Of a DNA stretch of 64,000 nt, positions 7,573-49,135 are shown one piece after another. Within the stretch, counting starts at the first letter, position 1. Every line of letters begins with the position of its first letter. Origin of the DNA: Nageia nagi (Eukaryota; Plantae; Pinophyta); contig JBITNC010000001.1 in NCBI GenBank assembly GCA_050084985.1, positions 96,410,001 to 96,474,000 on the forward strand. Reading direction: 5' to 3'. Below the pieces are notes generated by a model, which was not told the DNA's origin, did no database searches, and saw only the letters and a list, made by a program, of their open reading frames with translations. Position numbers and translations under genes: made by a program.

Positions 7573-9379
7573 GGTCTATAAGTAATATCTTATGACTTTG
7601 GAATGGAATTATCTACTATTTTTTTGCATTGAAAATGATTAAATAGAAGATTATTATTATATTAAGAATGTAGATAATTATGGTAACATTTTTGTTTTGT
7701 AGGATTCAGGTGATGCTTATAGGAGTTGAGTGCTTGACCATCCATGAAGTACTTGGTTAAAGTGTGAGTATGTGACCTTAATCTATAGAAGGTTCATTTT
7801 GGTATAACACTTATTAATCTTGAAAATAATTAATGATTTATATTACATTCTCATTATTACATACATTGCATAATGATATCTCTTACATTAAAACCTAGAA
7901 CAATTTCATTTGACCCTAGGACCTAAGTGCACCAATCAAATTGCACCCAAGAGAGTCCAATAAATCATAAATGATTTAAGTTACATGAGGTGATTTTCTT
8001 CAAGTATTAATGATTAGGCCTACATTGATAATTTTATTAATAACATTAGGAGTGAGCCATAAATTTATGTATCTAAAAATATACCTATACAAAAAAGAAA
8101 ATACCACATTGTTACTATTTAATAAATTATATTTATTATATAACAATACTAAACCTAAATTAAATTAAACTTAAGTTACTAAAATAATAATCCCTAAAAT
8201 TAATCATACAAGTAGGAAATAGAAAAATAGGAAAAAAAAAAATTTCATTTTTCAAAGTGTGTAAGCAGGTAGAAAAACCTAGGAGAGAAAATAGGGTTTC
8301 TTGTGAACCCTTGATCTCATAATATATTAAATGGATAGGATTTTCCTAGATTCCAAAATGGTTTCCAAATTGTTTTAGGGAATAAGAATGATGGAAAAAG
8401 TCATGTATGGAGGAAAATAAATAGAGGAATAGTTGTAATAATTATTATGCTCCCATTTCTCACCTAGGTTCATAAATTTGGAAGAAACTTCATAGGGTTT
8501 CAATCCAGGTTTCATCATGAGATCACCAATAGTTTTTAGAGCTTCCTTTGGTAAATGGAAGGTTTCCTAGGAAAACCAATGCATAAAAGAGGCTATAAAT
8601 TTTTCTCAAAGGGATTTCTTCAAATTAGAGGAGTAGAAGAAGAATACAAGGTGAGACATAATGGGTATAATAATTTGGGAAGAAAGAAGAGAGAGGAAAT
8701 ACTTTAGAAGATCAAGTATTGAGATTTGAAAAATTGACTTTGTAGGTATTTTACATCCTTCTATATAGAATGAAAATGTTAGAAAACATGTTTGTAATCC
8801 ATGCTTGTATAATGTCTAAATTTTGCTATTTTTAATGGGTATTAATACTTTCTTTAGATGATGATATTATAATTCATAGAGTGTAGTTTTACTCTAACAA
8901 TTACATTTATTAAAAATCTTTAGAGCCTTCCTAAAAAATCCCTTTATGCACATCGATTGATTTTTGCATCCCATAATATTATAGTCAAAATTAGTTTTGT
9001 ATTCACATGCTACAATCAATATAAGGTATTAATAGTGGTAGAAATAGATGGCCTAAAGACCACCTTTTCTCCCTCCCTTCTTAAAGGATATGGTTCTTGT
9101 TGCATGCATTTTCATAGTAATAAAATCTTATCATTACCCACAAAAATTATAACCTCCATACCAATATGAACATCACTCTCATACAATTATGATATGGTTG
9201 GTTGAAAGACAAAAAGCAAATTTTGTTACTACTCTTACGGTATTCAAAATATACCTTACTTTGTAGATAAGTATTGCCAACATTACCACTAGAAGAAGCC
9301 ATGAGTTTTGACTATATGATTAAATAAGATATTTTCATAATGTATGATGATTTCTAGACCATGGATATCCTCACTAGGA

Positions 9380-10300
9380 AGTGAAACTATCTTACCATTT
9401 TCAACAAACAACTATAGGATCCCTTCAACATTTTTGTCAAATGATTCATAACCCATTCAAATACCCATTTTGTGTGAATGCTGCAACTTGTAAAATAATT
9501 AATCAAACCCCCTTATTATATAAAACAAGTGCATATTGATGGATAATTTTTCAAATAAATTATCATCCCTTTTACTATTGGAGTATTTTAACAAATACTT
9601 CACATGCCCTTTCAACAAATTCACATATTCTAAGTTCGTAGCAGTCTATGAGACTTTGTTTGCATCTTATGTCTTGTAATTTTTTTTATGAACCTTGAGT
9701 AATGTATCATGTATTGCATACATGTATTTAATAAATACATAAACATAATTTTCAATGAGAATTCATTTTTAATTACTCTTGGATGGATGTCTAGACATTC
9801 CTTTAGAATCTTCACGATGGCACATACTAGAGAATTGGTATTAAAAGAAGTAGGGATTCTATTTATGCTTGAATCATTTCATATATTTTAAATTCATCAG
9901 AGTTTTTTAGGAAATCCATTATGTGAACCTTGTAACCTATAAAATCATGACTACATCATGTATGTTGTCAACAACTTCTGGCCTTATATATATACTCCTA
10001 TATTATGTAATTCACGAGCCCTTACATCTATTTGAAAACATGCTATTGACAATGTGATTGCATTTATATCAGGCATTTTATTAAAGAATTCATAGTATTT
10101 TTTTTTTATCTTGTACATATTGCATTCTCTTCCACTATATTAAAAATATATCGATTTGGTAAACATAATATCCACCACTATAATGCATAGGAAATAACCT
10201 TCCTCTTTTGTTAAACAAATACAGGTCCTTTCATTTTGTGCATACTCTACAACATGCCTTTGATAATAATTCTATCAAACACTTACAATCCATTTCAAAG
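9380..10300 (-). pseudogene. Possible highly decayed CACTA/EnSpm-like transposase fragment
   Basis: The minus frame at ~9420-9540 reads SINMHLFYIIRGLINYFTSCSIHTKWVFEWVMNHLTKML, resembling the N-x-H-L...W-x-F-E motif of EnSpm-type transposases. The rest is ambiguous. Confidence 0.3.
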
Positions 10301-13300
10301 CACATTGATGAGTTATTTTATCAAACAAATAGTAGACTCTTTTAACATATTGTGTCTTTCATTTGTTAAACACATGTTGTAGGAACCTATGAGTATACGA
10401 CTACTATCATATTGCAACCAAGTTTATTTGCATAATTGTTACAAAGGATATTATTGTAAGGATTATAAACTAATTCTATAATAAAGGATATAATTAAGGA
10501 GATTATTCACAATACATAGCAATGCAATATCTACAAATTCTTGCACAATAATATGGTCCATGTTTATAGGAAGTAAGGAAACCATGTTCCCTTTTATTGT
10601 CTAAAAAGTATTGAATAATTATACAATATGGTTAATTGTTAACATTTCATTAACAATTAAAAGTGAATGTATACATATAGTTATGGGGAATTTGTGAAAG
10701 CCTTGTATTAGGGAATTATGGTATTAAACTAGTCTTCAAGAATCTTATATGAATGTAGAGTGTAGAGATAGTGAAAGAATTGTAGTAATTGTAAAAAAGA
10801 AGAAGAAATTATTGAAGGAATTAGACAATAATCAATGGAAAATAAATGTTAGAGAAAGGTTTTTAAATAATCAATGATTTTAAGAGATAATACAAACTCT
10901 TAACTATACTTTTCTCTATCATTTTGAGCAATCCTTGATTAGATGCATGTGTATGTTACATTGACCCTCTAGGCCTAAACTCTATAATTCTTATAGGTTG
11001 ATTTTGAACTATCCATGGATAAAATACCAAGAATTATTAGGTGGAATTATATAATGTTATATTTATATGCATAATATTATTTTCTATTTGATTTATGAAT
11101 TCAAATTTCATTTAAATTGCTTCTAAGGACAAAAATTGAAAGGTTAGTTGCAAAATGGAATTTTGGACTAAATTGATAAATGATACTACTATCTTAAACT
11201 TTAGGGATATAAAATAATTAAAAAGTGTTGAAATTTTTTGAGTAGGATATAAACCACATAAGATTATTACAATTAAAAAAATATGCAAAACTGATCCAAA
11301 AGAGAAAGTTACAAGTTTTGTAATATTATATTGTATATGATAGTTTAGGATGTTTGACTGAGTTAGGTTAGTACAAAGATAAAATGGAGGATGTATAATT
11401 TTCCAAATGGGATGAAATTTAAATAGTATATTATACACATAAAAATTCACCTATAATTAAAAAATAACATAAATCAGATTTGTAAAATCAAAATTATAAG
11501 CTCTCCAAGTTGACTATTCTATGTATGATAATTTTGGAGAGCGAGACAATTCGATATTGAAGCTTCAAAATAAATATTTTGAAATTTGTTTTGTGATGAA
11601 TATAATTAATCTAAGGTGGAATTATAAATATCATTTCTTACTATATAATATCAATATAATCCATACCATGTCATATTAATTTATAGTTAGCATAATTTAG
11701 GGATGCATATAATCCTAGTATTATTAATATTTTTGCAATTGATATCAACAATTATACTTGGAATTCATAATAATTTATTCATACCAAGGAAAAGAGGATT
11801 TATATGACCTGAAGGAGGTTAATTCCAAGTTATGGTTTCTATAAGAAGAATATTTTTAACCAAGTCTAAAATAAGATCATTATTGCACTAGTATTATCTT
11901 ACATATTTATCTTCAAATTTATTATCATCACACATTTTGCATAAACTTCATGATGTCATAAGAAATTGAAGAAGAATTTCACTTTGTATACTATATATTG
12001 GGATACTTATTTATGAGAATCTACATGGAGATGTATAAGTCACCTCTTATCAAGTTTTCATAGTGGTTCTATGAGAAGGATAATATTGTATTATCTTACA
12101 TTGATTTGTATATTTGGTTAGAGTTTTATATTCTTTAGCCAACAAAGGGGACATTGGATTAATAATATCCTTGTATAGAGGACCATTTTAAGGTTGGTTA
12201 TTGATTCTCAAAGAGGAATGTATGTGAAATATCCCAATAAATCAATGTAAATACATAAATAGATCTAATGAATTGGAAACCATCATTTGAGAGTGGATGT
12301 ACCTTGAAGCAAGGGGAACTACTATAATTTACTAGATTTTATCATTTTATGTATGGTTCTTCTTTAATTTTAGTTTTATCTCATTTCAATTATGTTCCCA
12401 TTCAATTTAATAATGTGTATTTAATGTGTGATGCTATTGCAATGTGGATAAGATTATGGAATAATAGGTTGGATCTATAGAATTTCATGTATCATATTGA
12501 TTTATGATTATGTGGTCTTGATATTTTATAGTATATTCAAAATGATGGGTGATTATGTTTTGAATGATAAATTCTATTCAACAATATGAACATGTGAATA
12601 GTTATTGTTTGGTTGAACAAATGTAATTGGAATGTTATTGCATTTGACAATACTCTCTTGAAAAACTAATTTTGTATATCATCTCATTAAGAGTGATGTG
12701 TATGACTTTCACTTGTATAATCATTTACATCATTGGTTACATTCTAAAATAAACAAGGATATATTTATATTGCAATTTTCATTAGGAGAATTAGTTAAAA
12801 TATTTCATGATTGATAAAGAATGGGCATGTAATATTTATAGTTTATATAACATTTATATTATATAATTCATTATGAGTTAGATTATATGTTTACATGCAA
12901 GTAAATAAAGGCTTATTCTTTTGGAATCAATGAACTAAAGGAGTTATGGGTGCTTATTAGAGATGGATACAATGTGTTAAGATCATCTAACTATATGACC
13001 ATAAATCATTTTGGAAATAATAACAAGTGAGCATAAAATCACACTAAATATTTGAGATGCTCAACATACAAGGAGGATGGCTAAGGGACCATAGGGTTTA
13101 GTCTCCCATATTTTCAATATGAAAATGAAATTAAGGTCTATGAAAATATTTAATACACCATAATGAAAATGAAGGTTATAAGCACTTAGAAGTGTCTCGA
13201 GTAATCATTTAACATATAAAAAATGAACAAGTAAGTCAATATTTGAAGTTTGAATAAGTATCATCTCTTAGCAAGGGTCACTAGATTAAATTTAGGATTA

Positions 13301-19140: not shown

Positions 19141-19387
19141 CACAAGATCAATAGAGCCCTAATACAACATCAAAGTATATGTAAATAGAGTTCAAATGAT
19201 TAGTAACCATGTTAAATTCATTCAAGTGATCATTAAGAGATCCACCTTCACCCATTTTCATGTTAAACAATTTCATAAGGAATACCTTATTCAAAGTTAT
19301 GAGTTTTTCATACAAATTGACCAAAGTTACCATGAGGTATTTGGTTATATTTCCTTTGGAGATAGTGAAGGCCATTATGGCTCTTAG
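19141..19387 (-). pseudogene. Isolated Ty1/Copia gag (UBN2-type, Tnt1/Tork-like) fragment
   Basis: LYEKLITLNKVFLMKLFNMKMGEGGSLNDHLNEFN (ORF 19148..19375). Confidence 0.8.
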
Positions 19388-21074
19388 GCATAACCTACTA
19401 GACCAAAAGAGGTTTTGGGGGAGGTTTTAAACCATCACCTTTTATTTTTTTTCAATGGTTATCTTCCTATCACCTATGAGCCTGCCACCAAAAGTCCCTT
19501 TTATATGGGAAAACTAATAACTATTGGTATATCACACTTGAAATTACCTTCTAATATCATACAGAGGTGGTTATAAACTATTGCTCTATTAACAATGCGA
19601 GTAGATATAACTTCCCCTCAACCTACCTCATTATTTTGTAAAGTGGTAGTTTGAGCCATCACTTTATAGATATGAGCAATAGTTTAAAATCATCACATAG
19701 TTATCATATTTAAAAAAAATATTACATAGCCTTGAAGCATTATTCCAAATGGAAGAGTGCTTCAAGCTACACCATCCTTGGTTACCCAAGGAACTCAAGC
19801 TCAATCATAGCAAGCCTAATTATGATGCTGGCCATGGAATCCTGAATAAAATTTAAATTTGATGAGCTACCCTACATGTTATTAAATTTTTTGAATGATG
19901 GTTTGGTATTCAATTTTACCTATCAAATGTAATATTATATATCTATATATAATATTTAATCTATTAATTAATATATTATATATATAAAATTTTACGGGTA
20001 ATAATTGCATTTAAATTACACAGATGATGTTTATTTTTAAATTATGGCCATATTTGATGGGAAAAAATGCCAAAAACATCTAAATGGGTATCAAATTTAA
20101 ATCATGCTCTTGAAGGAAGTCCCAATGGAACTAACTAGATCATTATATATATATTTATATATATGTGTGTGTGTATGTATGTATATATATTATTATATAT
20201 ATTCTATATGCAAATGATGAAGTTGGTAAAAATATGCTTGTAATACTTTGTAACTATTCAACCTAGAAATTTAAATGCTATGTTGTATTATCTCCATAAT
20301 AAGCATAATAAGATATCTTTCTCTAAGATAACCTATTCAAAACGTTATGAATTAGAATATCTCAATAGATTTATCATTGTTATGTTACCACACACAACCA
20401 AATTGGATGCTTGAAATATATTATATGAAATGATCCAAGTCCACCATATGTTAAGAAATTGTGGACTTTTAAGAAAATGTATGATGCAAGACTTGGGAAT
20501 TATTTGACAAGATGTATGATATAAAAATATAGTTTCATTATCTATAATGATTGTAAGATATAAACACATGATGCAAGGCCTAGGAATTGTTTGAGAAGAT
20601 GCATGATGCAAACACTATTTTTTGGAAGCTTAATAAGATTCAAATATTCTCAAATGATAAAAAATACCAATATTATGATCAAGGGTCACATAATCATGCT
20701 CAAATGATTCAAATATGCTCTACAATTTCAATTATTTCTCAAATGATTTAAATATGCTCTATAATACTACTACCATAATATTTCAATTTACAAGCACCAA
20801 GCATACCACTTACATTGAGGTAATTTAAAACCTTTGCATATTAAATTAATAAAGAAAATAAAAGGGAATAATTGGGAGAATGCTTTTAGGATATGCCATG
20901 CTCAGTTTCTCAAGGCACTTGAGATCAATATAATGAGCCCAATCAAAGTGCTGGCCATGGATTCTTGAAGGATGACCTAGTCAAACTTACGAGTCTTGTT
21001 CAATTTTTTACAAGTGCAACATATTGAAATGATTTAAATGCTCTAATAATGAAAATAAAATGATCTAAGTACAC

Positions 21075-21076
<2 letters not shown>

Positions 21077-21103
<27 letters not shown>
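21077..21103. repeat. (AT)n microsatellite
   Basis: Perfect AT run of about 13 units. Confidence 0.95.
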
Positions 21104-21106
<3 letters not shown>

Positions 21107-21737
21107 TATATAATTAATGATTATGAAATGATCCAAATGCACCATTACATGAAATGATATGAAGCATCTAAGTTGGTGTTGTAATTAACATCATGAATAA
21201 TGCTAAAGCATAACTATGACATATCTACTGAAAGCTTGTAAGTGTAGCTAGCCCTGACTATTCAACCCATAAATTTGTCAAAAACCAATCTAAAAGTGGT
21301 AAGTTGGTAAAAACATGCTTGTAATACCTAGTCACATAGAGAAAGATTTGAGCATAATTTAATCTATAGTGCATATTTAAATCATTTGAGCATAATTATA
21401 GAGCATATGATATGAATCTTATTTCACTTATATTTAAATAATGACCTATGATATGAAATATTTTAAATACAATATATGATCCAAAAATTACCATGAATAT
21501 GTAAAGAAACTATTTAACCCAAAAACATTCTAAGCATTAAAAACTATTCCAAAAGTGGTAAGTTGACTAAAATCTACCTTTTTTAGGTTTGTACAAGCTA
21601 CTAAGCTACCAGTCATGCTTACATAAATGTACCCAGCTAAAGATGAAAGTTTACTTTGATCCATGCCAAGATAAATAATGATTTTTATACTTAAAAATAT
21701 GTCTCTACTAATAATATTAAACCCTTTGATATGATGA

Positions 21738-23230
21738 AGCACTTGAATTCAATGCCAAATACACTCATAGAATGGAAAATAAGTCATATTCTCCTACTGA
21801 GCATGACTTGCTTTGCATGATGCAAATAGTTTCATGGTATATAATAAATGAAAATAATTTCATGGTATATAATAAATGCAAATAATTTCATGGTTTATAA
21901 TTATTTTAGGATACATACAAAAAGGGTTTTCTAGAAAAGGCCCATAGAAATCTATGCAAAATGTGAAAAAATAAACAAGGCTTGGAAATTGTTCGATAAG
22001 ATGCATGATGCAAATACAATTTTTTGGAATGCAATTATCAAAGGATATGTAATTAATAATATACATGGTAACATTATGAACAATAATGAAGCATAACAAT
22101 TATATATCTACCAAGAACTTGTAAATGTAGCTAGCCCTAACTTATCTAATTTATGATATTTTGAACATGTTATCTAGGGGGAAATACATCCAACCTTTAT
22201 ATCTTAATATGATTATTATGGAGGTAAGATAAAATAATATTGAAAATTTTAGGGTGACCAATGGAACATGTTGTGGGTTCCTTCATTTCCTAGCTTGTAT
22301 CATAATAGTTTCATGGTCTGCAATGATTGCAAGGTATGCACAAAATGAATTTTCTAAAAAAGTCCCATAGATATGTATGCAAAATGTGGAAGAACACACA
22401 AGGCTTGAGAATATGAGCATAATTATATAATTATGCATCTCATGGATAATTTAATAAGAGTCACTCATGCTATTCAAGTATTTATAGTTGTGTGATGTAA
22501 TGAATATTTCTGATTAAGCACTTAATTCAATTCCAAATAGACTCATATAATGGAAAATAAGTTATATTCTCCCCCTGAGCATGAATTGCTTTACATGATG
22601 CAAATAGTTTCATGATATGTAATAAATGAAAATAATTTCATGGTATATAATGATTTTAGGATACATACAAAATGGATTTTCTAGAAAAGGCCTATAAAAA
22701 TGTATGCAAAATGTGAAAAATACACAAGGCTTGGAAATTGTTCAATAAGATGCATGATGCAAATACAATTTCTTGGAATGCAATGATCAAAATATATGTA
22801 ATTCATAACATTCATGGTAACATATGCATAATAATGAAGCATAACAATTATATATCTAATAAGAGCTTGTAAATGTAGTTAACCATGACTTATCTAATTT
22901 ATGATATTTTGAACAGGTTATCCTGGGGGAAATACGTCCAACCTTTATATCTTATTATGTATATTATAAAGGTAATAAAATAATATTTAAATTTTTGGGT
23001 TGAATAATGGAACATATTATGGGTTCCTTCATTGCCTAGTTTTTATCATAATAGTTTCATGGTCTACAATGATTGCAAGGTATGCACAAAATGAATTTTT
23101 GAAAAAGGCTCGTAGATATGTATGTAAAATATGGAAGAATACACAAGGATTGAGAATATGATAATAATTGTATAATTATGCATCTCAATGATAATGCAAT
23201 AAGAGTCACTTATGATATTAAATAATTTAC
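21738..23230 (+). repeat. Tandem duplication of a ~750-780 bp PPR-fragment block
   Basis: AGCACTT(G)AATTCAAT..CAAATA.ACTCATA.AATGGAAAATAAG at 21738 and 22518. The copies are colinear through AATAAGAGTCACT at ~22453 and ~23198. Confidence 0.9.
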
Positions 23231-23959
23231 AACCATATCTGAATGCAAGCTGCATCTTATCAGTAAATGATCATTACATTTACTACAAAATCTAGCTAGC
23301 TTTCAGATATATTCATTCAAATATAGTTTCATGTACTATAATGATCACATGATGTACACAACATGATGCAAATACAATTTCATGGACTATAATGATCATA
23401 GGTTGCAACCATGAGTTATTTTATAAAATACCTCATCGAGATGCAATCTCATGGACTACAATGATTCAAGATATGCACAAAATGAAAGATTATAGAAAGT
23501 ATGTTTACATCAAATAATTCCTAAGCCTTGTAACTTAAAACTACATAACTTAATATCATATGGTATACTTGGATAATTTCATATCATATATTTGAAGTAT
23601 TAATGCTAGTTATGTGGTAACATTGTGAACAATGTTGAGGCATAACTATGATACATCTATTGAGAAGTTCTGAATGTAGCTAGCCCTAACTTATATAATT
23701 CATGATTGTTTGTTCATGTTATCCTTAGAGGAATACATACAACATTTATACTGGAGGAAAGATAACATAGCATTTATATTTTTTGAATTCAATAATTGTT
23801 AAGTATTACAAGTATGTTTTTGCCAATTTACCAATTTTGGACTGGTTTTTGTTACTTAAAGTATAATGTTTGATCATGTAGCTACTTTACACCTAAAAAT
23901 TGCATCTACTTAAAAGTATATATAGTTTTTTTATTTTTTGCATATATTACAATGATAGG

Positions 23960-24870
23960 ATTAATCATTATACATGCATTGTTTACCTTCTTGGTCATGC
24001 AAGCTATCTTGAGGGAGCTTTGAATTTCACCACAAAAATACCCATAAACCCTGAAATGGATGTGTGCATGTATGTACTTGGTGCATGTAAATCAAATATT
24101 ATGGTTCATGCAGACTTTATTGAGGAAGATTTGAAATTCATTGCTAAAATACCCATAAAACTTGAAATGGGTGTATGCATGTAAATTGAATGCTATGGTG
24201 CATGTAGGCTATCTTGAGGGAGATTTAAATTTCGCTACCAAAATACCCATAAACCATGAAATGGGTGTATACATGTGTGTACTTGGTGCTTATAAATATA
24301 ATGTTATGGTTCGTATAGACTATAGTGAGGGAGCATTAAACTTCATTTCCAAATTACCCGTAAAACTTGAATTATGTGTGTGCATGTATCTACTTGGTTC
24401 TTGTAAATTGAATGTTGTGGTTTGTATAGGATATATTAAGAGAACTTAATATGGGTGCTTGTAAATTGAATTGGGTATATGTATGTGTCTCCTTGGTGCT
24501 TGTAAATCAAATATTATGGTTTGTGTAGGCTATCAAAATACCCATAAACCCTAAATTGGGTGTGTGCATATGTCTACTTGGTGCTTGTAAATTGAATGTT
24601 GTGGTTCATGCAAGCTATATTGAGGGAGATTTGAATTTCATTTCCAAAATACTGAAAAACCCTAAATTGAGCATGTGCATGTGTCTACTTGGTGCTTGTA
24701 AATTGAATGTTATGGTTCATGTAGGCTATAAAAATAACCATAACCTCTAAATTGGGTGTATGCATGTGTCTACTTAGTGCTTGTAAATCAAATGTTATGG
24801 TTCATGCAGACTATCTTAAGGAAGCTTTGAACTTCACTACCAAAATATACCCATAAATCTTGAGATGGGT
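23960..24870 (+). repeat. Tandem array (~9 units, 111-bp master period) derived from the PPR S2/E1 motif junction
   Basis: HYTCIVYLLGHASYLEGALNFTTKIPINPEMDVCMYVLGACKS, followed by repeats of VH(A/V)GYLEGDLNF..KIP..PE.GVCMCLLGACKLN. Unit starts (GG of ATGGTTCATG) are near 23993, 24103, 24197, 24308, 24419, 24518, 24603, 24714 and 24799. Confidence 0.9.
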
Positions 24871-25870
24871 GAGTACATGATGCAAATAGAGTTTAATGGC
24901 ATGCAATGATTATAGGATTTATGGGTTTTGTAAAAGAATACAAAAATATACAAAACACAAACATATATATAGAATGCAAAAGAATACTACAAGTTTGCAA
25001 GGTCACAAAATAAAATTCCTACTTGATCCTCCTAGACAACAAGTCTCCTCTCATTTAGTCTCACCACATATCCTCTTGTTTGGTATCCCTTATCCTCTCT
25101 CGTATTGCCACTACATTAAATGGCCCTCTCTCCTTCAACACCTTAGCTCAAAAAACTTGAAATGATGAAAATATTATAAGTAACCTACATAAAGCTCCCT
25201 ATGTGTGCCTTTTCTTAACTTTCTCATTGTCACTAAGGGGCAATTTTTCACCACCATATATATATTTTGTGGAGTGGCTAAAAATTGTCCAACTAAAATC
25301 ACCACTAAAACTTAAAAAAAAAGGTAGTTTAAAACCAACCCATAAAAACTACCTCAAATTAGTTGCCCCCAAAACCCTTTTTTGGTCTAGTGACCTTATC
25401 ATTCCTAATGCCTTTTTATCTATAAATTAACATGAATATAAGAGGATTTAGATAAACAAATTACTAGAATGAAATAAGAATATATGCCACACAAGATGAG
25501 TTAATATTAACATAATACATAGAGAAAATAAAAATGTTAGTCAATTATCCATCTAAGAAACTCAAATAATGGTCAATAATGATCTAAAAAATAATACTCA
25601 TTTAGCCACCCAATCAAATTATCCTTCAAATAGAGAAGCACCTAAAAAAATAATACATATAGTGAATTATGAGTTAGAAATGAAAGAGGAATATAATAAT
25701 AAAGAGGGTTAAATTTTATGAATAGTATATATAAAAAGGAATCATAGATTAAATAACCTCAAATTTGTAGGATCAAAAACTAATAAAAAGAATATAGAAG
25801 AACAAGGCATAACTCTTACTCAAGAAGAGATGATGAAATTATTGCTAAATTTCAATACCCTTTAGGAATA

Positions 25871-26642
25871 ATGATTACTACTATGTATAATGTAAATGGT
25901 TTTGGAAGTTTCCCTAGACAAATGGTTATTTGAATATTAATTCAATAAATGAACATAGTTGTAATGATCCTAAAAGAAACAAGACTAAATGAATGGAATT
26001 TGCAAGGTTATAATAATAAATTTTGGTGAAATGGAGAAATACATTCCCAACTATTGTAGGGAAGGTTAGGAGATATAACCACTACTTGGAACCTATCCAT
26101 TTCCAAGAACTAGGGTTAAAATTACCTATAAGGGTTCTTATAGTATAACTTGGGAACATAGAGTTAGTGTAAATGTAGATGATCATTAATGTATATAGAT
26201 CCAAATCATTAGAAATGCAAAGGTAGAAATAGAAATATATAAAAAGATTTAAAGAGAATTACCCAAGAAATTAGGATAGTAGAGGGAATGACATTCAAAT
26301 TATAAGAGGATGAAAACAATTATAATGAAGATAATATTATAAAGTCTTTTCTATATACGTTTTGACCAAGGAAAACTACTTTCAAATAATTGTATTTACA
26401 AGGAAAGATTCTTGATAGACTAACTTTGGATCACTTTCTAGTATACTTAAAAATTATAATCACAAGTTTAAGATAAATAAATGCCTTTTATTTTGAATAT
26501 TTTTATATTAAAAAAGATTAAATCATGGGTCTCATTTATGATTGGTATGAGTAAGGTAAATACCATGACAACATAATATAAATTTGCATTCACTAACAAT
26601 TAAGATACATAAGATTCAAATCAAATCCATGGAACATACATC
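25871..26642 (+). mobile_element. L1-clade LINE ORF2, 5' part (APE endonuclease), degenerate
   Basis: MITTMYNVNGFGS...MILKETRLN (cf. MKIISWNVRGL...LQETK), GRLGDITTTWN and IINVY. Confidence 0.75.
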
Positions 26643-28015
26643 TATAAAATCCCTAAATAATTATTCAAGAAAATATTAGCCAATTAAGTATCAAATAATA
26701 TCAATATGCACTCCTAGGTATACCATGAACTATTATGGGGTATCAAACACACATAAAAATGAGCTATAAATACCAAAGATGCACTCCTTTATTCATATTT
26801 CACCTCTACAACCTAACATCACACATGGAGACTCATATATCATGCAAAACACACCATTAATGGCTAGGAATGCCAACTTCACTATACAAGCATGATAAAA
26901 CTAAAATAGCTTAATGTTGGATATATGGAAGTATGAACATCAAATAATGAGAAAATAATGAGATCTAAGTATGCCATGAATCTATTAATGGAAGAATGAT
27001 GAGTACAATATTGAACAGGCCAATGAGGGCTCAATGTTGACCTCCAAGGATCCAACTAAGGTAAATAATATGTAAAGATAGATCCTTCTATTGAAACTAA
27101 TTTAGAATAATCATACACTACCAAATCCATGGATGCCACAGTGAAGGGCCCCCTCATAAGATAGCTCTTAACGAAGAGAGTAGATGTGATTTTGAAATGC
27201 CATTAGATGGATTCAAAGGTTTAGACTACTAATGGATGCATTAGGGTAGGGAAACCTCACAACATCAACATTCACCTTAACTACTATTCAGAAGGTGTTC
27301 TATGCCTTTTGGATTATCCTTGTATTCTATGCTCAAGGTTTCTTGATATTGCCAAGTCTTTGGTAACTACAAAGAGAAGGGTTTCAATATTGAATTGAAG
27401 TCTATCTCCTCAATGAGGCTCCTTTGCCTTATATATCTCATCAATGGATCTAGATATCATCTAAAAGTCATCAACCAACCTTACTAATCCAATGTGGGTT
27501 TCTTAGAAGCCCCATAAAGCTTAATAAAAGTGCCTAGGGGTCAATTCAAGCCCAACATGGGTATCTGGATCTTTTACATGCTCAATGTGGATCATCATGC
27601 TCAATGTAGGTGTTTTGGAATCACCCATGCCACATGGGGATTAGAATGCGTGCATGGGTTTCTTGGAATTATAATAAGCCAATGTGAGGTCTAGAGTGCA
27701 TGTGTGGATGTCTTAGAGTCATCATGGGCCAACATGGGGGTATAGAAGACTTCCCATGGTTGGCACATGTATATAAGTGCTCCAAAATCTAACATTAAGA
27801 AAATTAGGTATTTATCCATGCTTAAGTGTCATCTAGGTGTTATATAAGCATTAGGATTCTCATAATCATCTTTAGGATCACAATGTGGGTCCAACGGACC
27901 ATTATCTTTATATCCCAAGTAAATAACAACAAATACATGAATAAATGAATATTTACAAAAATGGAATCCCTAGGATTACAAAATTATTTATTTTTTGCAA
28001 AAAGAGGATGTTACA
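26643..28015 (-). repeat. 3' LTR (lacks ~70 bp present in the 5' LTR)
   Basis: TATAAAATCCCTAAATAA...GGATGTTACA, colinear with 30366-31807. Confidence 0.92.
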
Positions 28016-30350: not shown

Positions 30351-30364
30351 AAGCTCTAATACCA
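30351..30364 (-). promoter_or_regulatory. Primer binding site, initiator tRNA-Met type
   Basis: AAGCTCTAATACCA is the reverse complement of TGGTATTAGAGCTT (canonical TGGTATCAGAGC) and lies 1 bp from the LTR. Confidence 0.9.
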
Positions 30365-30365
30365 C

Positions 30366-31807
30366 TGTAAAATTTCTAAATAACTATTTAAGCAAATATT
30401 AGTCAATTAAGTATCAAAAAATATCAATATGCACTCCTAAGCATGCCATGAACTATTATAGGGTATCAAACATATATAAAAATGAGCCAAAAACCTAATG
30501 ATGCACTCCTCTAGTCAAATTTTACCTCTACGATATAACATCACACATGGTGACTCATATATCATGCAAAATACACCATTAGTGGTCAAGAATACCAATG
30601 ATTCACCATACAAGCATGAATACATTGAAATATCTCAATGTTAGATATATGGAAGCATGAACATCGCATAATAAGATAATAATAATATCCAAATATGCCA
30701 TGACTCCATTAATTAAAGAATGATAAATACAATACCAAACAGGCCTAAGAGGGCTCAACATTGGCCTTTACAGAGCCAACTAGGGAAAATAATATGTAGA
30801 GATAGATCCTTATATCAAAACTACTATAGAACAATAACACATTACCATTTATATGGATGCCACATTGAAGGGCTTCCTCACAGACTAGCTCCTAGTGAAG
30901 AGAACAAATGTGATTTTGAAATGCCACTAGATGGATTTAAAGGTTCAGATTGCTTGTGGATAACTTAAGGTAGGGAAACCTCACAAAATGAACATTCACC
31001 TTAATAGCTATTCAGAAGGTGTTCCATGCCTCCTAGATTATCCTTGTGTTCTACACTCAAGGGTTCTTGATATAGCTAAATCTTTGGTAACTCCAAAGAG
31101 AAGGGTTTCAATATCAAATTCAAGTCTATCTCCTAAATGAGTCTCCTTCATTTTATGTAGCTCATCAATGGATCTAGATATCATCTATAGGTCATCACCC
31201 ATCCTTCCTAATCTAATGTGGGCTTCCTAGAATCCTCACAAAGCCCAATGAAGGTGCCTAGGGATCAATCCAAGCCCAAAATGGGTATCTAGGTGCTGTA
31301 CATGGTCAATGTGGATCATCATGATCATTGTGGATTCTTTGGAGTCACCCATGTCACATGGGGATTAGAATGCATGCATGGGTTTCTTAGAATTATATTA
31401 AGCCAACATGGGGGTTTAGAGTGCATGTATGGGTATCTTGGAGTCATCATGGGCCAAATGGGGGTATGTAAGTCTCCCTAAGGATGGTGCATGTATACAA
31501 GTGCTCCCAAATCCAAAATTGGATCAATTAGGTATTTTTCTTGCTCAAGTGTCATCTAGGTGTTATACAATCATTGGGATTCCCACAATCATCTTTAGGA
31601 TCTCCAAGTGCATTAATGATAAATTAAATAACACATAGTAGCTTAGGAGGAAAACCTCCCTCATGGGGCTCACAATGTGGGTCCAATGGACTATTATATT
31701 TTTATCCCAAGTAAATAACAATAAATACATGAATAAATAAATATTTATAAAAAGGGAATCCCTAGGATTCTAAAATTACTTATTTTTTACAAAAAGGGGA
31801 TGTTACA
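30366..31807 (-). repeat. 5' LTR
   Basis: TGTAAAA...GGATGTTACA, adjacent to the PBS. Confidence 0.92.
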
Positions 31808-41777: not shown

Positions 41778-42278
41778 TGTTGGAATGAATAATGCATTAT
41801 TATAAAATTTTTGTAATTATCCTCCTTGTAAAATCACTATACTTAAGGGTATCATTAGATACCTTAATTATTTAAGTGAATATGATAATGTAACTTATCC
41901 TACACTCCATGTCATGAGCATGCCCCTTGGCTAAAAGGGAGTTCCATGTTATGCCTTTGTACATTGGTTAAAAGGGTGATCCAAAGGGGCATTTTGGCCT
42001 ATAAATAGAAGGCCCCCTCTTTGTGATCACACACCAATTTGTGAAGCAAAGTTATGCTCTAGGATAGTGATTAGAAAATTATATTAGGAGAATTGTAAGA
42101 GAGATGTATTTGTGAATGAAGTAAGATCTAGTTAGTGGATGTACTCCTAGTTGTAGGAACCACTTTATCTCTTGAGTTATTTTATGAGATTATCTTCTTG
42201 AGTTATCTTGATGTTAGTATGGACTTCCATGAGATCTTGGTAGTTTAGAATTGTATTTTTTATATTTCAATCCCTTTA
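41778..42278 (+). repeat. 5' LTR of the inner Copia
   Basis: TGTTGG...TCCCTTTA (CA mutated to TA); TATAAATAG at ~42000. Confidence 0.95.
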
Positions 42279-45089: not shown

Positions 45090-47895
45090 TTAGGTGAAGG
45101 CCTAATTGGAAGTGTGTTGATTCATGGGAAGGTTTTAGAAAATGTGCTCTATGTTCCTAAGCTCAAGATGAACCTTATATTAGTGATTCAAGTTGTAAGG
45201 AAATGATACTCTTTTGAGTTTGAATCACAATCCTAGTGCATTAAGAAGGGAATTACCATGCTAGTTAAAGGATCAGTGAAAGATGATCTCTACATTATGG
45301 ATCAAGTTCCAACAAAGATGTGTCTTACTGCAAATGTGTGTTCTAGACGTAATCTTTGGCACAACATTTAGGGCACCTTAACCAAAAGAGTATTCAAGTC
45401 ATGAAAGATCAAGAACTTGTGGAAGGTTTGCCTTCAATTTCATCTTCAATTGATTTGTATGAAAAGTGAATCTTAGGAAAGATGAATAGACAAAGGTTTG
45501 AAAAAGATAAGAAAACAAGGGCATCTCTACCTTTTCAGCTTATACATTTAGATTTGATAGGTCTATTTTAGACTAAGTCACTTGGAGGAGCATCTTATGT
45601 CTTGACCTTCATCGATGACTTCAGTAGGATGATGTTTGGCTATCTAGTTGAGAATAAGGATCAAACCTTTGAGAGTTTTATGAATTTTAAGGCCTTAGTT
45701 GAAAATTAGACTAACCTTAAAATTAAGATGTTGAGATCAAATAATGGGGGAAAATATAATAGCAATGAGTTCAATGACTATTATGCTATGTATGGAATCA
45801 AGAGGTAGTTTACAATTCCTTACACTCCTTAGTAAAATGATGTTATTTAAAGGAAAAATAGGATAATTATGGAGATGGCTAGATGCATGTTGGGTAATAT
45901 TCCTAGTTTTTTATGGGGTGAAGTTGTGAGCACTGATATTTATACCTTGATAGGTGTCCCACAAAAGTTGTTTAGGGTAAAACTCTTTTTAAGGTTTGGT
46001 CAGGAATAAAACCTAACATTTCTCACCTTAGGGTATTTGGTTGTGAAGCATTCTCATACATTATTTTTGAGAAAAGAAAAAAGTTGGAAAAAAGAGCTAA
46101 AAAATGCATATTTGTAGGTTATGATAGTCAACATAGAGGCTACAAGCTCTGCTCTCCATCCTACAAAGCAATGTTCATATCGAGGGATGTAAAGTTCAAT
46201 GAAATTCCTAAAGAATCTACTTCTAATAAGGATTTTGATGATCCAAATGACTCATTAGTTACACCTAGTTGGTTGGATATTGATGTAGACAAGTCACCTC
46301 AGGAAAAACATTCTCCAACACAAAGGGTAACTAGGAGCATGACCTTGAACAAATCCTTATTTGATACAATTGATAACAAAAATGAGCTTTCATCTTTCAA
46401 AGATGCTTCTAAGCATGAGTGATAGATGGAAGCCATGAAAGTGGAGTATGAGGCTCTTATGAAAAATGAAACTTAGGACTTGGTTTTTTATCCTAGTGAG
46501 AAGAATGTGCTTGGAAATAAGTGGATCTACAAGGTCAAGTTCAATTCAGTTAGGGATATTGAGAAATACAAGACAAGATTAGTAGCCAAAGGTTTTGCTC
46601 AAAAATATGGTATTGATTATGAGAAAATCTTTGCTCCCATGGAAAAAATGCCCACTATCAAAATTATCTTTGCTCTTTTAGCAGCTTAGGGATGGAAAGT
46701 TTTTCAACTTGACATCAAGAGTGCATTTATCAATGGTGAATTAGATGTGGAAATCTACATGAATCAACCAAAAGTATTTATTGTGGAAAGAAAAGAGTTA
46801 TTTGTGTGCAAGATCAAGAAGTCATTATATGGACTTAAGCAAGCACCTAGAGCTTCGTACAAGAAGATTTCAAGATACTTTAGAAACATTAGATTCTCCA
46901 AGTATTTTTTTGACTCCAATTTATATGTGCTAAATCAAGAAAAAGATTGATCTTAATTCTCCAATATGTGGATGATCTTCTAATTACTAAGAACAATGAT
47001 AAAATCATTCAAGAGTGTATATCCAAACTCAAGGAAATATTTGAAATGATTGATCTTGGTCTCTTACACTAATATCTTGGAATGCAAGTATACCAATAAA
47101 AGGATTGCACTTATCTTAGTCAATCCAAGTATATATCACACATCTTACAAAATTTTGAATGGAGAAGTATATACATGCTATGATCCTTGTCTCTCTTGAA
47201 ATCACTATTTCCCTTAGCTTCAACTCATAGTTGGTAGATACTACAACTTACATGCAATTAATTAATAGTCTTCTTTATTTGATTATTTCCAATCTAGATA
47301 TTACTTTTATAGTGAATCTAATAGAATGATTCATGTAGAAACCATATATTGAGCACCTCAATGCTGTTAAGCAAATATTAAGGTATGTTGTAAGGATGAA
47401 GAATCTTACTCTCAAGTATTCCAAGTTACCCTCATTTTTTCTCTTAGGTTTATATGATTCTGACTATGGAGGAGATAGAGATGATAGAAAATCAACCTTT
47501 GCATTTATTTTTAGCATTGGTTTAGGTGCTATCTCTTAGGCTTCAAAGAAGTATACCTATATTTCTCTTTCCATGATAGAAGTTGAATATTGTGCCATAT
47601 ATGTTGCAACCAAGAAGCTATTTGGCTAAGGTATCTTCTAAAAGAAATTAGGTATTAGAAACCTGGACCATCTCTAATTTCTTTAGATAATCAATTGGCT
47701 ATTTCTTTGGCTAAGAAACATGTGTTCCATCAGAGAATAAAACATGTGGAAATTTAGGCCCATTTCATCAAGGAAAAGGTTCTTGATGGCATTTTACACG
47801 TGGAGTATTATCCATAAATCTTGAACTTTGCTAAGCCCCTCCTTAAAGCTCAATTTAGTAAGCTTAGGGATGCTGTTGGGTTGGTGAAGTTTCCC
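45090..47895 (+). pseudogene. Copia pol relic (protease C-terminus, GAG-pre-integrase, integrase, RT, RNase H)
   Basis: LENVLYVPKLKMNL, LGHLN, SLGGASYVLTFIDDFSR, KCIFVGYD, KWIYKVK...YKTRLVAKGFAQ, KSLYGLKQAPR, YVDDLL and DSDYGGDRDDRKST. Confidence 0.95.
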
Positions 47896-48635: not shown

Positions 48636-49135
48636 TGTTGGGATGTATAATGCATTATTGTAAAGTTTTTGTATTAATCCTCCTCGTAAATTTACTAATA
48701 CTTAATGGTATCATTAGATACCTTAAGTATTTGAGTGAATATGATAATGTAACTTATCCTACACTCCATGTCATGAGCATGCCCCTTGGCTAAAAGGAGT
48801 TGCATGTCATGCCTTTGTACATTGGTTAAAAGGGTGATCCAAAAGAGGATTTTGGCTATAAATAGAAGGCCCCCTCTTTGTGATCATGCACCAATTTGTG
48901 AAGCAAATTTATGCTCTAGGATAGTGATTAGAAGATGAAATTAGAAGAATTGTAAGATAGTTATCTTTATGAATGAAGTAAGATCTAGTTAGTGGATGTA
49001 CTCCTAGTTGGAGGAACCACTTTATCTCTTGAGCTATTTTGTGAGATTATTTTCTTGGGTTATCTTGATGTTAGTATGGGCTTCCATGAGATCTTGGTAG
49101 TTTAGGATTGTATTTGTTATATTTCAATCCCTTCA
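48636..49135 (+). repeat. 3' LTR of the inner Copia
   Basis: TGTTGG...TCCCTTCA, preceded by the PPT and followed by the TSD. Confidence 0.95.

What the first reader, a model, noticed from the sequence alone, without database searches (positions are those of the whole stretch)
23960..24870. PPR S2/E1 junction amplified into an in-frame 111-bp (37-codon) tandem array
Seen: one lead-in HYTCIVYLLG is followed by about 9 head-to-tail units encoding roughly VHAGYLEGALNFITKIPINPEMGVCMCLLGACKLNVM, and full units are 111 bp. Known: in PLS-class RNA-editing PPR proteins this stretch (HYACMVDLLGRAG.L.EA..FI..MP..P...VW..LLGAC) occurs once, just before the E/DYW extension, and is not reiterated. Units share loss of the conserved Trp (C or Y instead), so amplification followed divergence from a normal gene. 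Inference: this is either a nascent satellite born from a PPR gene or a relic of a novel reiterated S2/E1 helical-repeat protein. It could also be a siRNA source against the large editing-factor family.
Basis: partly seen in the sequence, partly recalled or inferred. Interest (0 to 1): 0.8.

Follow-up and report, generated by a model that had tools for sequence, protein, structure and literature searches.

The report
Transposon-borne repeat copied from PPR genes
This is a broken tandem repeat copied from a piece of the plant's RNA-editing (PPR) genes and carried inside a jumping DNA element at an estimated thousands of places in the genome; it likely encodes no protein, and whether it could silence the genes it came from is untested.

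Summary
The array is real (23996-~24880, nine units, four of them full 111 bp) and comes from the S2/E1 junction of a PLS-DYW PPR gene clade. It is not in frame as a whole: its longest open frame is 96 aa. It is also not a local event. It lies inside a 5,997-bp CACTA (En/Spm) element (19396-25392) with terminal inverted repeats and a 3-bp target duplication; 31% of the element matches pieces of one PPR clade. Sister copies carry the same array plus a broken Transposase_21 gene on the opposite strand; the window copy lacks that block. The genome holds 5,286 exact unit junctions (about 3,300 loci by extrapolation), dispersed, with no long satellite seen. Of 81 full units, 27 have stops (26.9 expected if neutral), and 41 of 44 odd spacings break frame, so a reiterated PPR protein is unlikely. 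Gene capture by CACTA, an antisense PPR piece in a CACTA (grapevine, two copies) and arrays inside CACTAs are each in print. A gene-derived array spread this widely was not found in eight paper searches. An siRNA role is sequence-feasible but untested.

The parts
19393..19395 (+). 3-bp target-site duplication, left copy (ACC)
19396..19422 (+). Left terminal inverted repeat (TACTAGACC..., first base C>T from CACTA)
19396..25392 (-). Whole non-autonomous CACTA element, 5,997 bp; strand given is that of the transposase in sister copies
20486..20627 (+). Captured PPR coding piece
21635..21706 (.). Point where the ~3.75-kb transposase block of sister copy A (L146) is missing
21732..23229 (+). ~750-bp internal tandem duplication (85% identity) holding several PPR pieces (21886-22057, 22305-22412, 22625-22806, 23053-23157 on +; 22426-22487, 23169-23234 on -)
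23315..23484 (+). Captured PPR coding piece
23958..23995 (+). Lead-in: first half of the S2 motif (HYTCIVYLLG)
23996..24880 (+). Array of nine PPR-derived units (111, 94, 111, 111, ~99, 85, 111, 85, partial); 99 of 111 bp come from the S2 second half plus the start of E1, 12 bp form a junction absent from donor genes
24876..24918 (+). Next PPR piece, from an upstream motif, directly after the array
25366..25392 (-). Right terminal inverted repeat (...TTTTTTGGTCTAGTG; reads CACTAGACC on the - strand)
25393..25395 (+). 3-bp target-site duplication, right copy (ACC)

Best explanation
The array is a broken tandem repeat of a PPR gene piece lying inside a CACTA DNA transposon copy that lacks its transposase; it likely arose once in an ancestral element, was likely spread by transposition, and is likely non-coding and decaying neutrally. 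Inferred order: (1) a transposase-bearing CACTA captured pieces of one PLS-DYW PPR clade near its 5' end, antisense to the transposase; (2) a captured piece ending just inside E1 was duplicated head to tail with a 111-bp period, in frame by chance and not in PPR motif register; (3) master elements with already diverged units spread to thousands of sites, gaining and losing units (2-12 per copy); (4) the window copy lost its transposase block and accumulated indels and transitions.
For: SHOWN. TIRs and ACC/ACC flanks; exact 3-bp duplications in L028, L031 and L146. 11 of 20 array loci run collinear to the same right end. 865 exact 17-nt TIRs in the genome, control 0. 5,286 exact junction 20-mers, control 1. 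Copy A (L146:101-9148) has both termini, a 4-unit array and PF02992 (198.5 bits, with stops) on the opposite strand; B and C are collinear with A at 71-84%; the window matches A on both sides of the missing block. PPR origin: host S2/E1/E2 profile hits 23951-24109 at E 4e-11, reversed control none; unit majority sequence is 84/99 identical to the donor clade's. Decay: 27 of 81 units with stops vs 26.9 simulated, 41 of 44 non-111 spacings not multiples of 3; 0 of 20 donors have a stop there. Inheritance: identity within arrays equals identity between them (0.818 vs 0.818), best match lies in the same array for 10 of 81 units, and unit type follows position (24 of 32 first-half vs 0 of 25 second-half units carry one diagnostic base). 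Intermediates: L134 has a 567-bp S2-E1-E2 piece and no junction; L143 has a 659-bp collinear PPR piece running into 2 junctions.
Against: Pfam gave no PPR hit on 3 window array ORFs or 7 array ORFs from other loci, and a protein search with an L037 ORF found nothing; the PPR call rests on host-built profiles and DNA identity. The dN/dS test does not discriminate: units give 1.8 (bootstrap 1.2-2.6) but donors give 1.3 (0.7-2.6) over the same 99 nt. Spacings are not independent (12 of the 44 are one inherited 85-bp type). The far end was found in only 2 of 20 TIR-anchored stretches, by a rule allowing one TSD mismatch. Clear subterminal repeats were not found. No intact transposase with these termini was found: two stop-free transposases checked showed no termini of this family nearby. 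The order of events is inferred.
Confidence: 0.88

Rival explanations
1. The captured PPR pieces, and their amplification, are kept because they act through small RNA: antisense read-through from the element would make siRNAs against the donor DYW-PPR clade, or the pieces would shield the element from silencing (epigenetic conflict).
For: PPR pieces lie mostly on the strand opposite to the transposase. 63 of 898 array 21-mers have at most 1 mismatch, and 171 at most 2, to at least one of 20 donor genes; reversed control 3 at up to 3 mismatches. 14 of 20 TIR-anchored stretches hold at least 200 bp of this PPR clade. One 853-nt multi-unit contig of another copy occurs in runs X3 and X4, which are guessed to be RNA. 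Precedents: PMC13317346 (maize capture and siRNA, passages), PMC4651229 (PPR phasiRNAs in spruce, passages), PMC2528002 (antisense proposal, passage).
Against: Only 1 of 898 window 21-mers matches a donor exactly. Divergence looks unconstrained. No small-RNA, strand or methylation data were available. The donor clade is large, with 11 of 20 sampled genes having an open frame of at least 586 aa through DYW, and donor-like sequence dominates the laid contigs.
Confidence: 0.15
2. Relic, or living copy somewhere, of a novel protein made of reiterated 37-aa S2/E1 helical repeats.
For: The unit is 37 codons; L038 holds a 233-aa open frame of six units.
Against: Stops at the neutral rate and frame-breaking indels. 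A six-unit open run among 23 arrays has a chance of 0.13-0.33 under neutrality, and L038 units give dN/dS 1.5. Third codon positions vary least (0.094 vs 0.154 and 0.117). No database protein matched (weak evidence). The period adds about five residues between the helices compared with S2 (inference from the alignment).
Confidence: 0.03
3. A nascent satellite: a PPR-derived monomer that has escaped the element and is being homogenised into long arrays.
For: L037 has 11-12 units that form their own group in an unsupported FastTree tree of 99-nt units, so local expansion happens.
Against: The first 100 of 5,286 junction matches fall in 63 loci with at most 4 each. The 100 listed of 131 triple-junction matches are scattered, at most 3 in a row. 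Within-array identity is no higher than between arrays. The longest array among 23 has 12 units.
Confidence: 0.07

Closest known systems
Pack-CACTA elements (Arabidopsis Pack-CACTA1a; PMC6379663 and PMC8903248, passages read)
   Same: CACTA termini of about 26 bp, 3-bp TSD, non-autonomous, captured coding fragments.
   Different: Those are mostly low copy and mix several loci. Here all identified cargo comes from one PPR clade (only PPR donors were tested; 69% of the element is unassigned), a captured piece forms a tandem array, copies number in the thousands, and transposase-bearing sisters carry the same cargo.
Grapevine Cactavine-5 with a PPR fragment (PMC2528002, passage read)
   Same: A CACTA carries part of a PPR gene opposite to the transposase; an antisense role was proposed.
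   Different: Two copies, one fragment downstream of the transposase, no array mentioned in the passage. Here many fragments lie upstream of the transposase and one is tandemly amplified.
Chenopodium Jozin CACTA with gene fragments and a 171-bp satDNA array (PMC8978399, passages read)
   Same: Gene fragments in the 5' region upstream of the transposase ORF; a tandem array inside a CACTA.
   Different: There the array and the gene fragments are separate additions at opposite ends; here the monomer is itself the captured coding fragment.
PLS-class E/DYW PPR editing factors (donor clade L058/L050/L068, L096-L115)
   Same: 84/99 nt identity of the unit to the donor S2/E1 junction.
   Different: Donors have one S2/E1 followed by E1-E2-DYW; the array has no E2 or DYW and no long frame.

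Membership tests
CACTA (En/Spm) superfamily | Terminal inverted repeats starting with CACTA | tested here: met
   Right end exact, left end has C>T at base 1; both ends exact in L146
CACTA (En/Spm) superfamily | 3-bp target-site duplication (PMC8978399, PMC6379663; a passage in PMC8903248 says 5 nt) | tested here: met
   Exact in the window, L028, L031, L146; one mismatch in L152, L131, L134
CACTA (En/Spm) superfamily | Transposase_21 gene in the element or its family | tested here: met
   Absent in the window; present but broken in sister copies A, B, C, and its DNA in 3 of 20 TIR-anchored stretches
CACTA (En/Spm) superfamily | Subterminal direct and inverted repeats | tested here: inconclusive
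   Only weak 2-3-copy repeats and short hairpins near the ends
Pack-CACTA | No transposase, with captured host coding DNA between the TIRs | tested here: met
   No transposase hit in the window; 1,857 of 5,997 bp match 4 donor coding sequences, reversed control 0
Pack-CACTA | Mobilisation in trans by an autonomous partner | not testable with these tools
   No intact transposase with these termini found; copies about 72-80% alike suggest past activity
PLS-class PPR gene | One open frame of P/L/S motifs followed by E1-E2(-DYW) | tested here: not met
   Longest frame 96 aa, no E2 or DYW in the element
Satellite DNA | Long arrays homogenised within the locus | tested here: not met
   2-12 units; within equals between identity; dispersed; only 100 places per genome search were listed
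siRNA-producing captured fragment | 21-24-nt reads and an effect on donor genes | not testable with these tools
   Only assembled contigs were available

The most novel reading that the evidence does not exclude
A conifer CACTA family has specialised on one large, fast-turning clade of DYW RNA-editing genes: it holds many pieces of that clade antisense to its transposase and has multiplied the S2/E1 piece in tandem at thousands of sites, forming a dispersed small-RNA reservoir that ties silencing of the transposon to dosage of the editing factors.
Probability: 0.15. Interest if true: 0.75.

Novelty: new variant of a known kind. Interest (0 to 1): 0.45.

Why it matters
It shows, with intermediates still in the genome (captured piece alone, piece plus two units, arrays up to 12 units, with and without transposase), how a protein-coding fragment becomes a dispersed tandem repeat inside a transposon. 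It warns that PPR counts and repeat-protein predictions in large conifer genomes can be inflated by thousands of transposon-borne pieces. It also offers a large natural test of epigenetic conflict: one donor clade, thousands of carriers, and untouched PPR clades as controls.

Tried and rejected
Pfam on array ORFs: no PPR family; the weak hits (DUF1422, MatC_N, AvrPiz-t and others, all below cut-off) were taken as chance. Protein database search with an L037 ORF: none of 182 candidates passed. Sequencing runs: no RNA holder listed, which is no evidence on expression. dN/dS as proof of neutrality: rejected because the donor control was not below 1. Helitron, suggested by the CTAG end: rejected for TIRs plus TSD. 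Intact PPR genes riding inside this CACTA: no enclosing termini within about 4.5 kb of 20 donor genes, and no open frame over 272 aa in the 20 TIR-anchored stretches. Nested transposase in copy A: no inner termini seen. Earlier scan notes: nothing. No fold was predicted, since no evidence points to a protein. Dedicated P/L/S/E motif HMMs were not on hand; the host-built profile included one wrongly oriented locus (L059) and one frameshifted locus (L051) among 30.

Full report
Observation. TRF reports overlapping arrays with periods 111, 94, 85, 196 and 205 at 23992-24847. Aligned unit by unit, there is a lead-in from 23958 and nine units from 23996 to about 24880; four are full 111 bp, and the others carry deletions of 17 or 26 bp, a scrambled stretch or a 2-bp insertion. 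The longest open frames are 95, 96 and 73 aa in three different frames. The unit is a whole number of codons, but the array is not in frame.

PPR origin. Pfam gave no PPR hit on 3 window ORFs or 7 ORFs from other arrays, and a protein search with one ORF was empty. I took the 30 best of 150 scored E-motif loci in the genome and built an S2-E1-E2 profile. It hits 23951-24109 at E 4e-11 and three later units weakly; reversed sequences give no hit. In DNA the closest of the 30 are L068, L058 and L050 (81% over 141 bp). That clade has at least 40 members at 93% or more over E1/E2 (40 scored of 3,917 candidates). In 20 fetched members, 14 keep E1-E2-DYW complete and 11 have a frame of at least 586 aa. 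The best named database relatives of one member are conifer proteins (Cryptomeria, Taxus) at about 70-77%. The unit majority sequence is 84/99 identical to the donor majority; its last 12 bp are not donor-collinear. The S2 and E1 labels are recalled from the PPR literature; Pfam's E_motif begins right after the copied stretch.

Context. One unit has 2,056 candidate places in the 4.3-Gb genome (40 scored, 85-90% identity). Flanks are shared: 11 of 20 fetched loci run collinear to a sharp end at 25383-25392. That end reads CACTAGACC on the minus strand, its mate lies at 19396, and ACC stands on both sides. L028, L031 and L146 also have exact 3-bp duplications. The exact 17-nt terminus occurs 865 times, control 0. 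Of the 5,997 bp, 1,857 match four donor coding sequences (1,696 on +, 161 on -), reversed control 0. I picked three places where a Transposase_21 hit lay close to a terminus or unit listed. Copy A is complete (9,048 bp) with a four-unit array opposite to a broken transposase; B and C are collinear with it; the window matches A on both sides of a missing 3.75-kb block at 21635-21706. So the window copy is most simply a deletion derivative, and the array sits about 0.5 kb from the element's 5' end, antisense to the transposase.

Family size and variety. The junction 20-mer occurs 5,286 times, control 1. The first 100 matches fall in 63 loci over 94 Mb, which extrapolates to about 3,300 loci; 36 of the 63 have a single match, and the pattern catches only 37 of 81 sampled units, so this counts junction-bearing loci, not arrays. 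Three junctions in exact register occur 131 times; the 100 listed are scattered. In 20 stretches chosen by terminus alone (one lost its terminus to a cut), 14 hold at least 200 bp of the PPR clade, 4 hold junctions and 3 hold transposase-block DNA; the far end was found in only 2, so some of this DNA may lie outside the element. L134 (S2-E1-E2 piece, no junction) and L143 (659-bp piece running into two junctions) look like earlier stages.

Coding test. From 23 arrays, 133 anchors gave 81 ungapped full units; 52 gapped or partial ones were dropped. Twenty-seven have a stop against 26.9 simulated; 41 of 44 non-111 spacings break frame, though 12 are one inherited 85-bp type; third positions vary least. 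None of 20 donors has a stop in the same stretch. dN/dS was 1.5-1.8 for units but 1.3 for donors over 99 nt and 0.84 over 294 nt, so this test shows no purifying selection on units but does not separate them from donors. The 233-aa frame in L038 is expected by chance (0.13-0.33). C>T and G>A changes dominate and are higher at the two CHG positions (0.36 vs 0.13), which fits methylation but rests on few sites.

History of the array. Units are no more alike within an array than between arrays, and in 13 arrays unit type follows position, so diverged units were likely inherited from master elements rather than homogenised locally. L037 is the exception: its units group together and mostly keep Trp. 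Since 19 of 20 donors have Trp, the Trp change probably came after the junction formed, although reversion cannot be excluded.

Expression. Only assembled contigs from runs guessed to be RNA could be laid, on 23154-25392. Most laid pieces continue into donor-gene sequence. One 853-nt contig with several units appears in X3 and X4, but it is not this copy, and strand, level and RNA status are unknown. By sequence, 63 of 898 array 21-mers are within one mismatch of a donor and 1 is exact, so cross-silencing is possible but unshown.

Literature. I read passages only, from PMC8978399, PMC13477047, PMC8903248, PMC4651229, PMC13317346, PMC2528002 and PMC6379663; no supplements. CACTA gene capture, an antisense PPR piece in two grapevine CACTA copies, and a satellite array inside a Chenopodium CACTA are described there. 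Eight searches showed no title, abstract start or read passage on a PPR-derived tandem array spread by CACTA; most listed papers were not opened, and the library lacks most subscription journals.

Verdict. A Pack-CACTA-type element with a PPR-derived internal array: the anatomy is shown, the order of events is inferred, and any regulatory role is untested. New variant of a known kind; interest 0.45.

Noticed in passing
L096-L115 (e.g. G000:C5:29.56 Mb, C200:401.9 Mb): The donor PLS-DYW clade is large and close-knit (at least 40 members at 93% or more over E1/E2), varies in length (up to 1,222 aa), has 9 of 20 sampled genes broken or short, and shows dN/dS near 1 around S2/E1; partial duplicates of the gene often follow it downstream.
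   Followed up: partly
window 19148-19395: The element's left flank is a broken copia-type gag remnant (Pfam Retrotran_gag_2, E 2e-5, below cut-off).
   Followed up: partly
window 8878-11084: A second, older patch of PPR pieces of the same clade, with similarity to L131/L134-type elements; no terminus recognised.
   Followed up: partly
window 26636-27887 and 30359-31610: 1.25-kb direct repeats at 82.5% identity, possibly the LTR pair of a 5-kb retroelement.
   Followed up: no
window 41778-42276, 48636-49133 and 2063-2546: A ~500-bp repeat, 92% between the first two copies and inverted at 76% in the third; possibly LTRs, with integrase-like text at 45976 (label recalled).
   Followed up: no
G000:C200:139499762 and C86:143236627: Stop-free CACTA transposase frames of 826-827 aa with nearly the same N-terminus, only about 30-40% identical to the PPR-carrying family's transposase: a different, younger-looking CACTA family.
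   Followed up: partly
L036:8329-9859 (oriented): Just outside an array-bearing element lies an inverted mosaic of donor E1/E2, DYW-side and downstream pieces at 79-86%.
   Followed up: no
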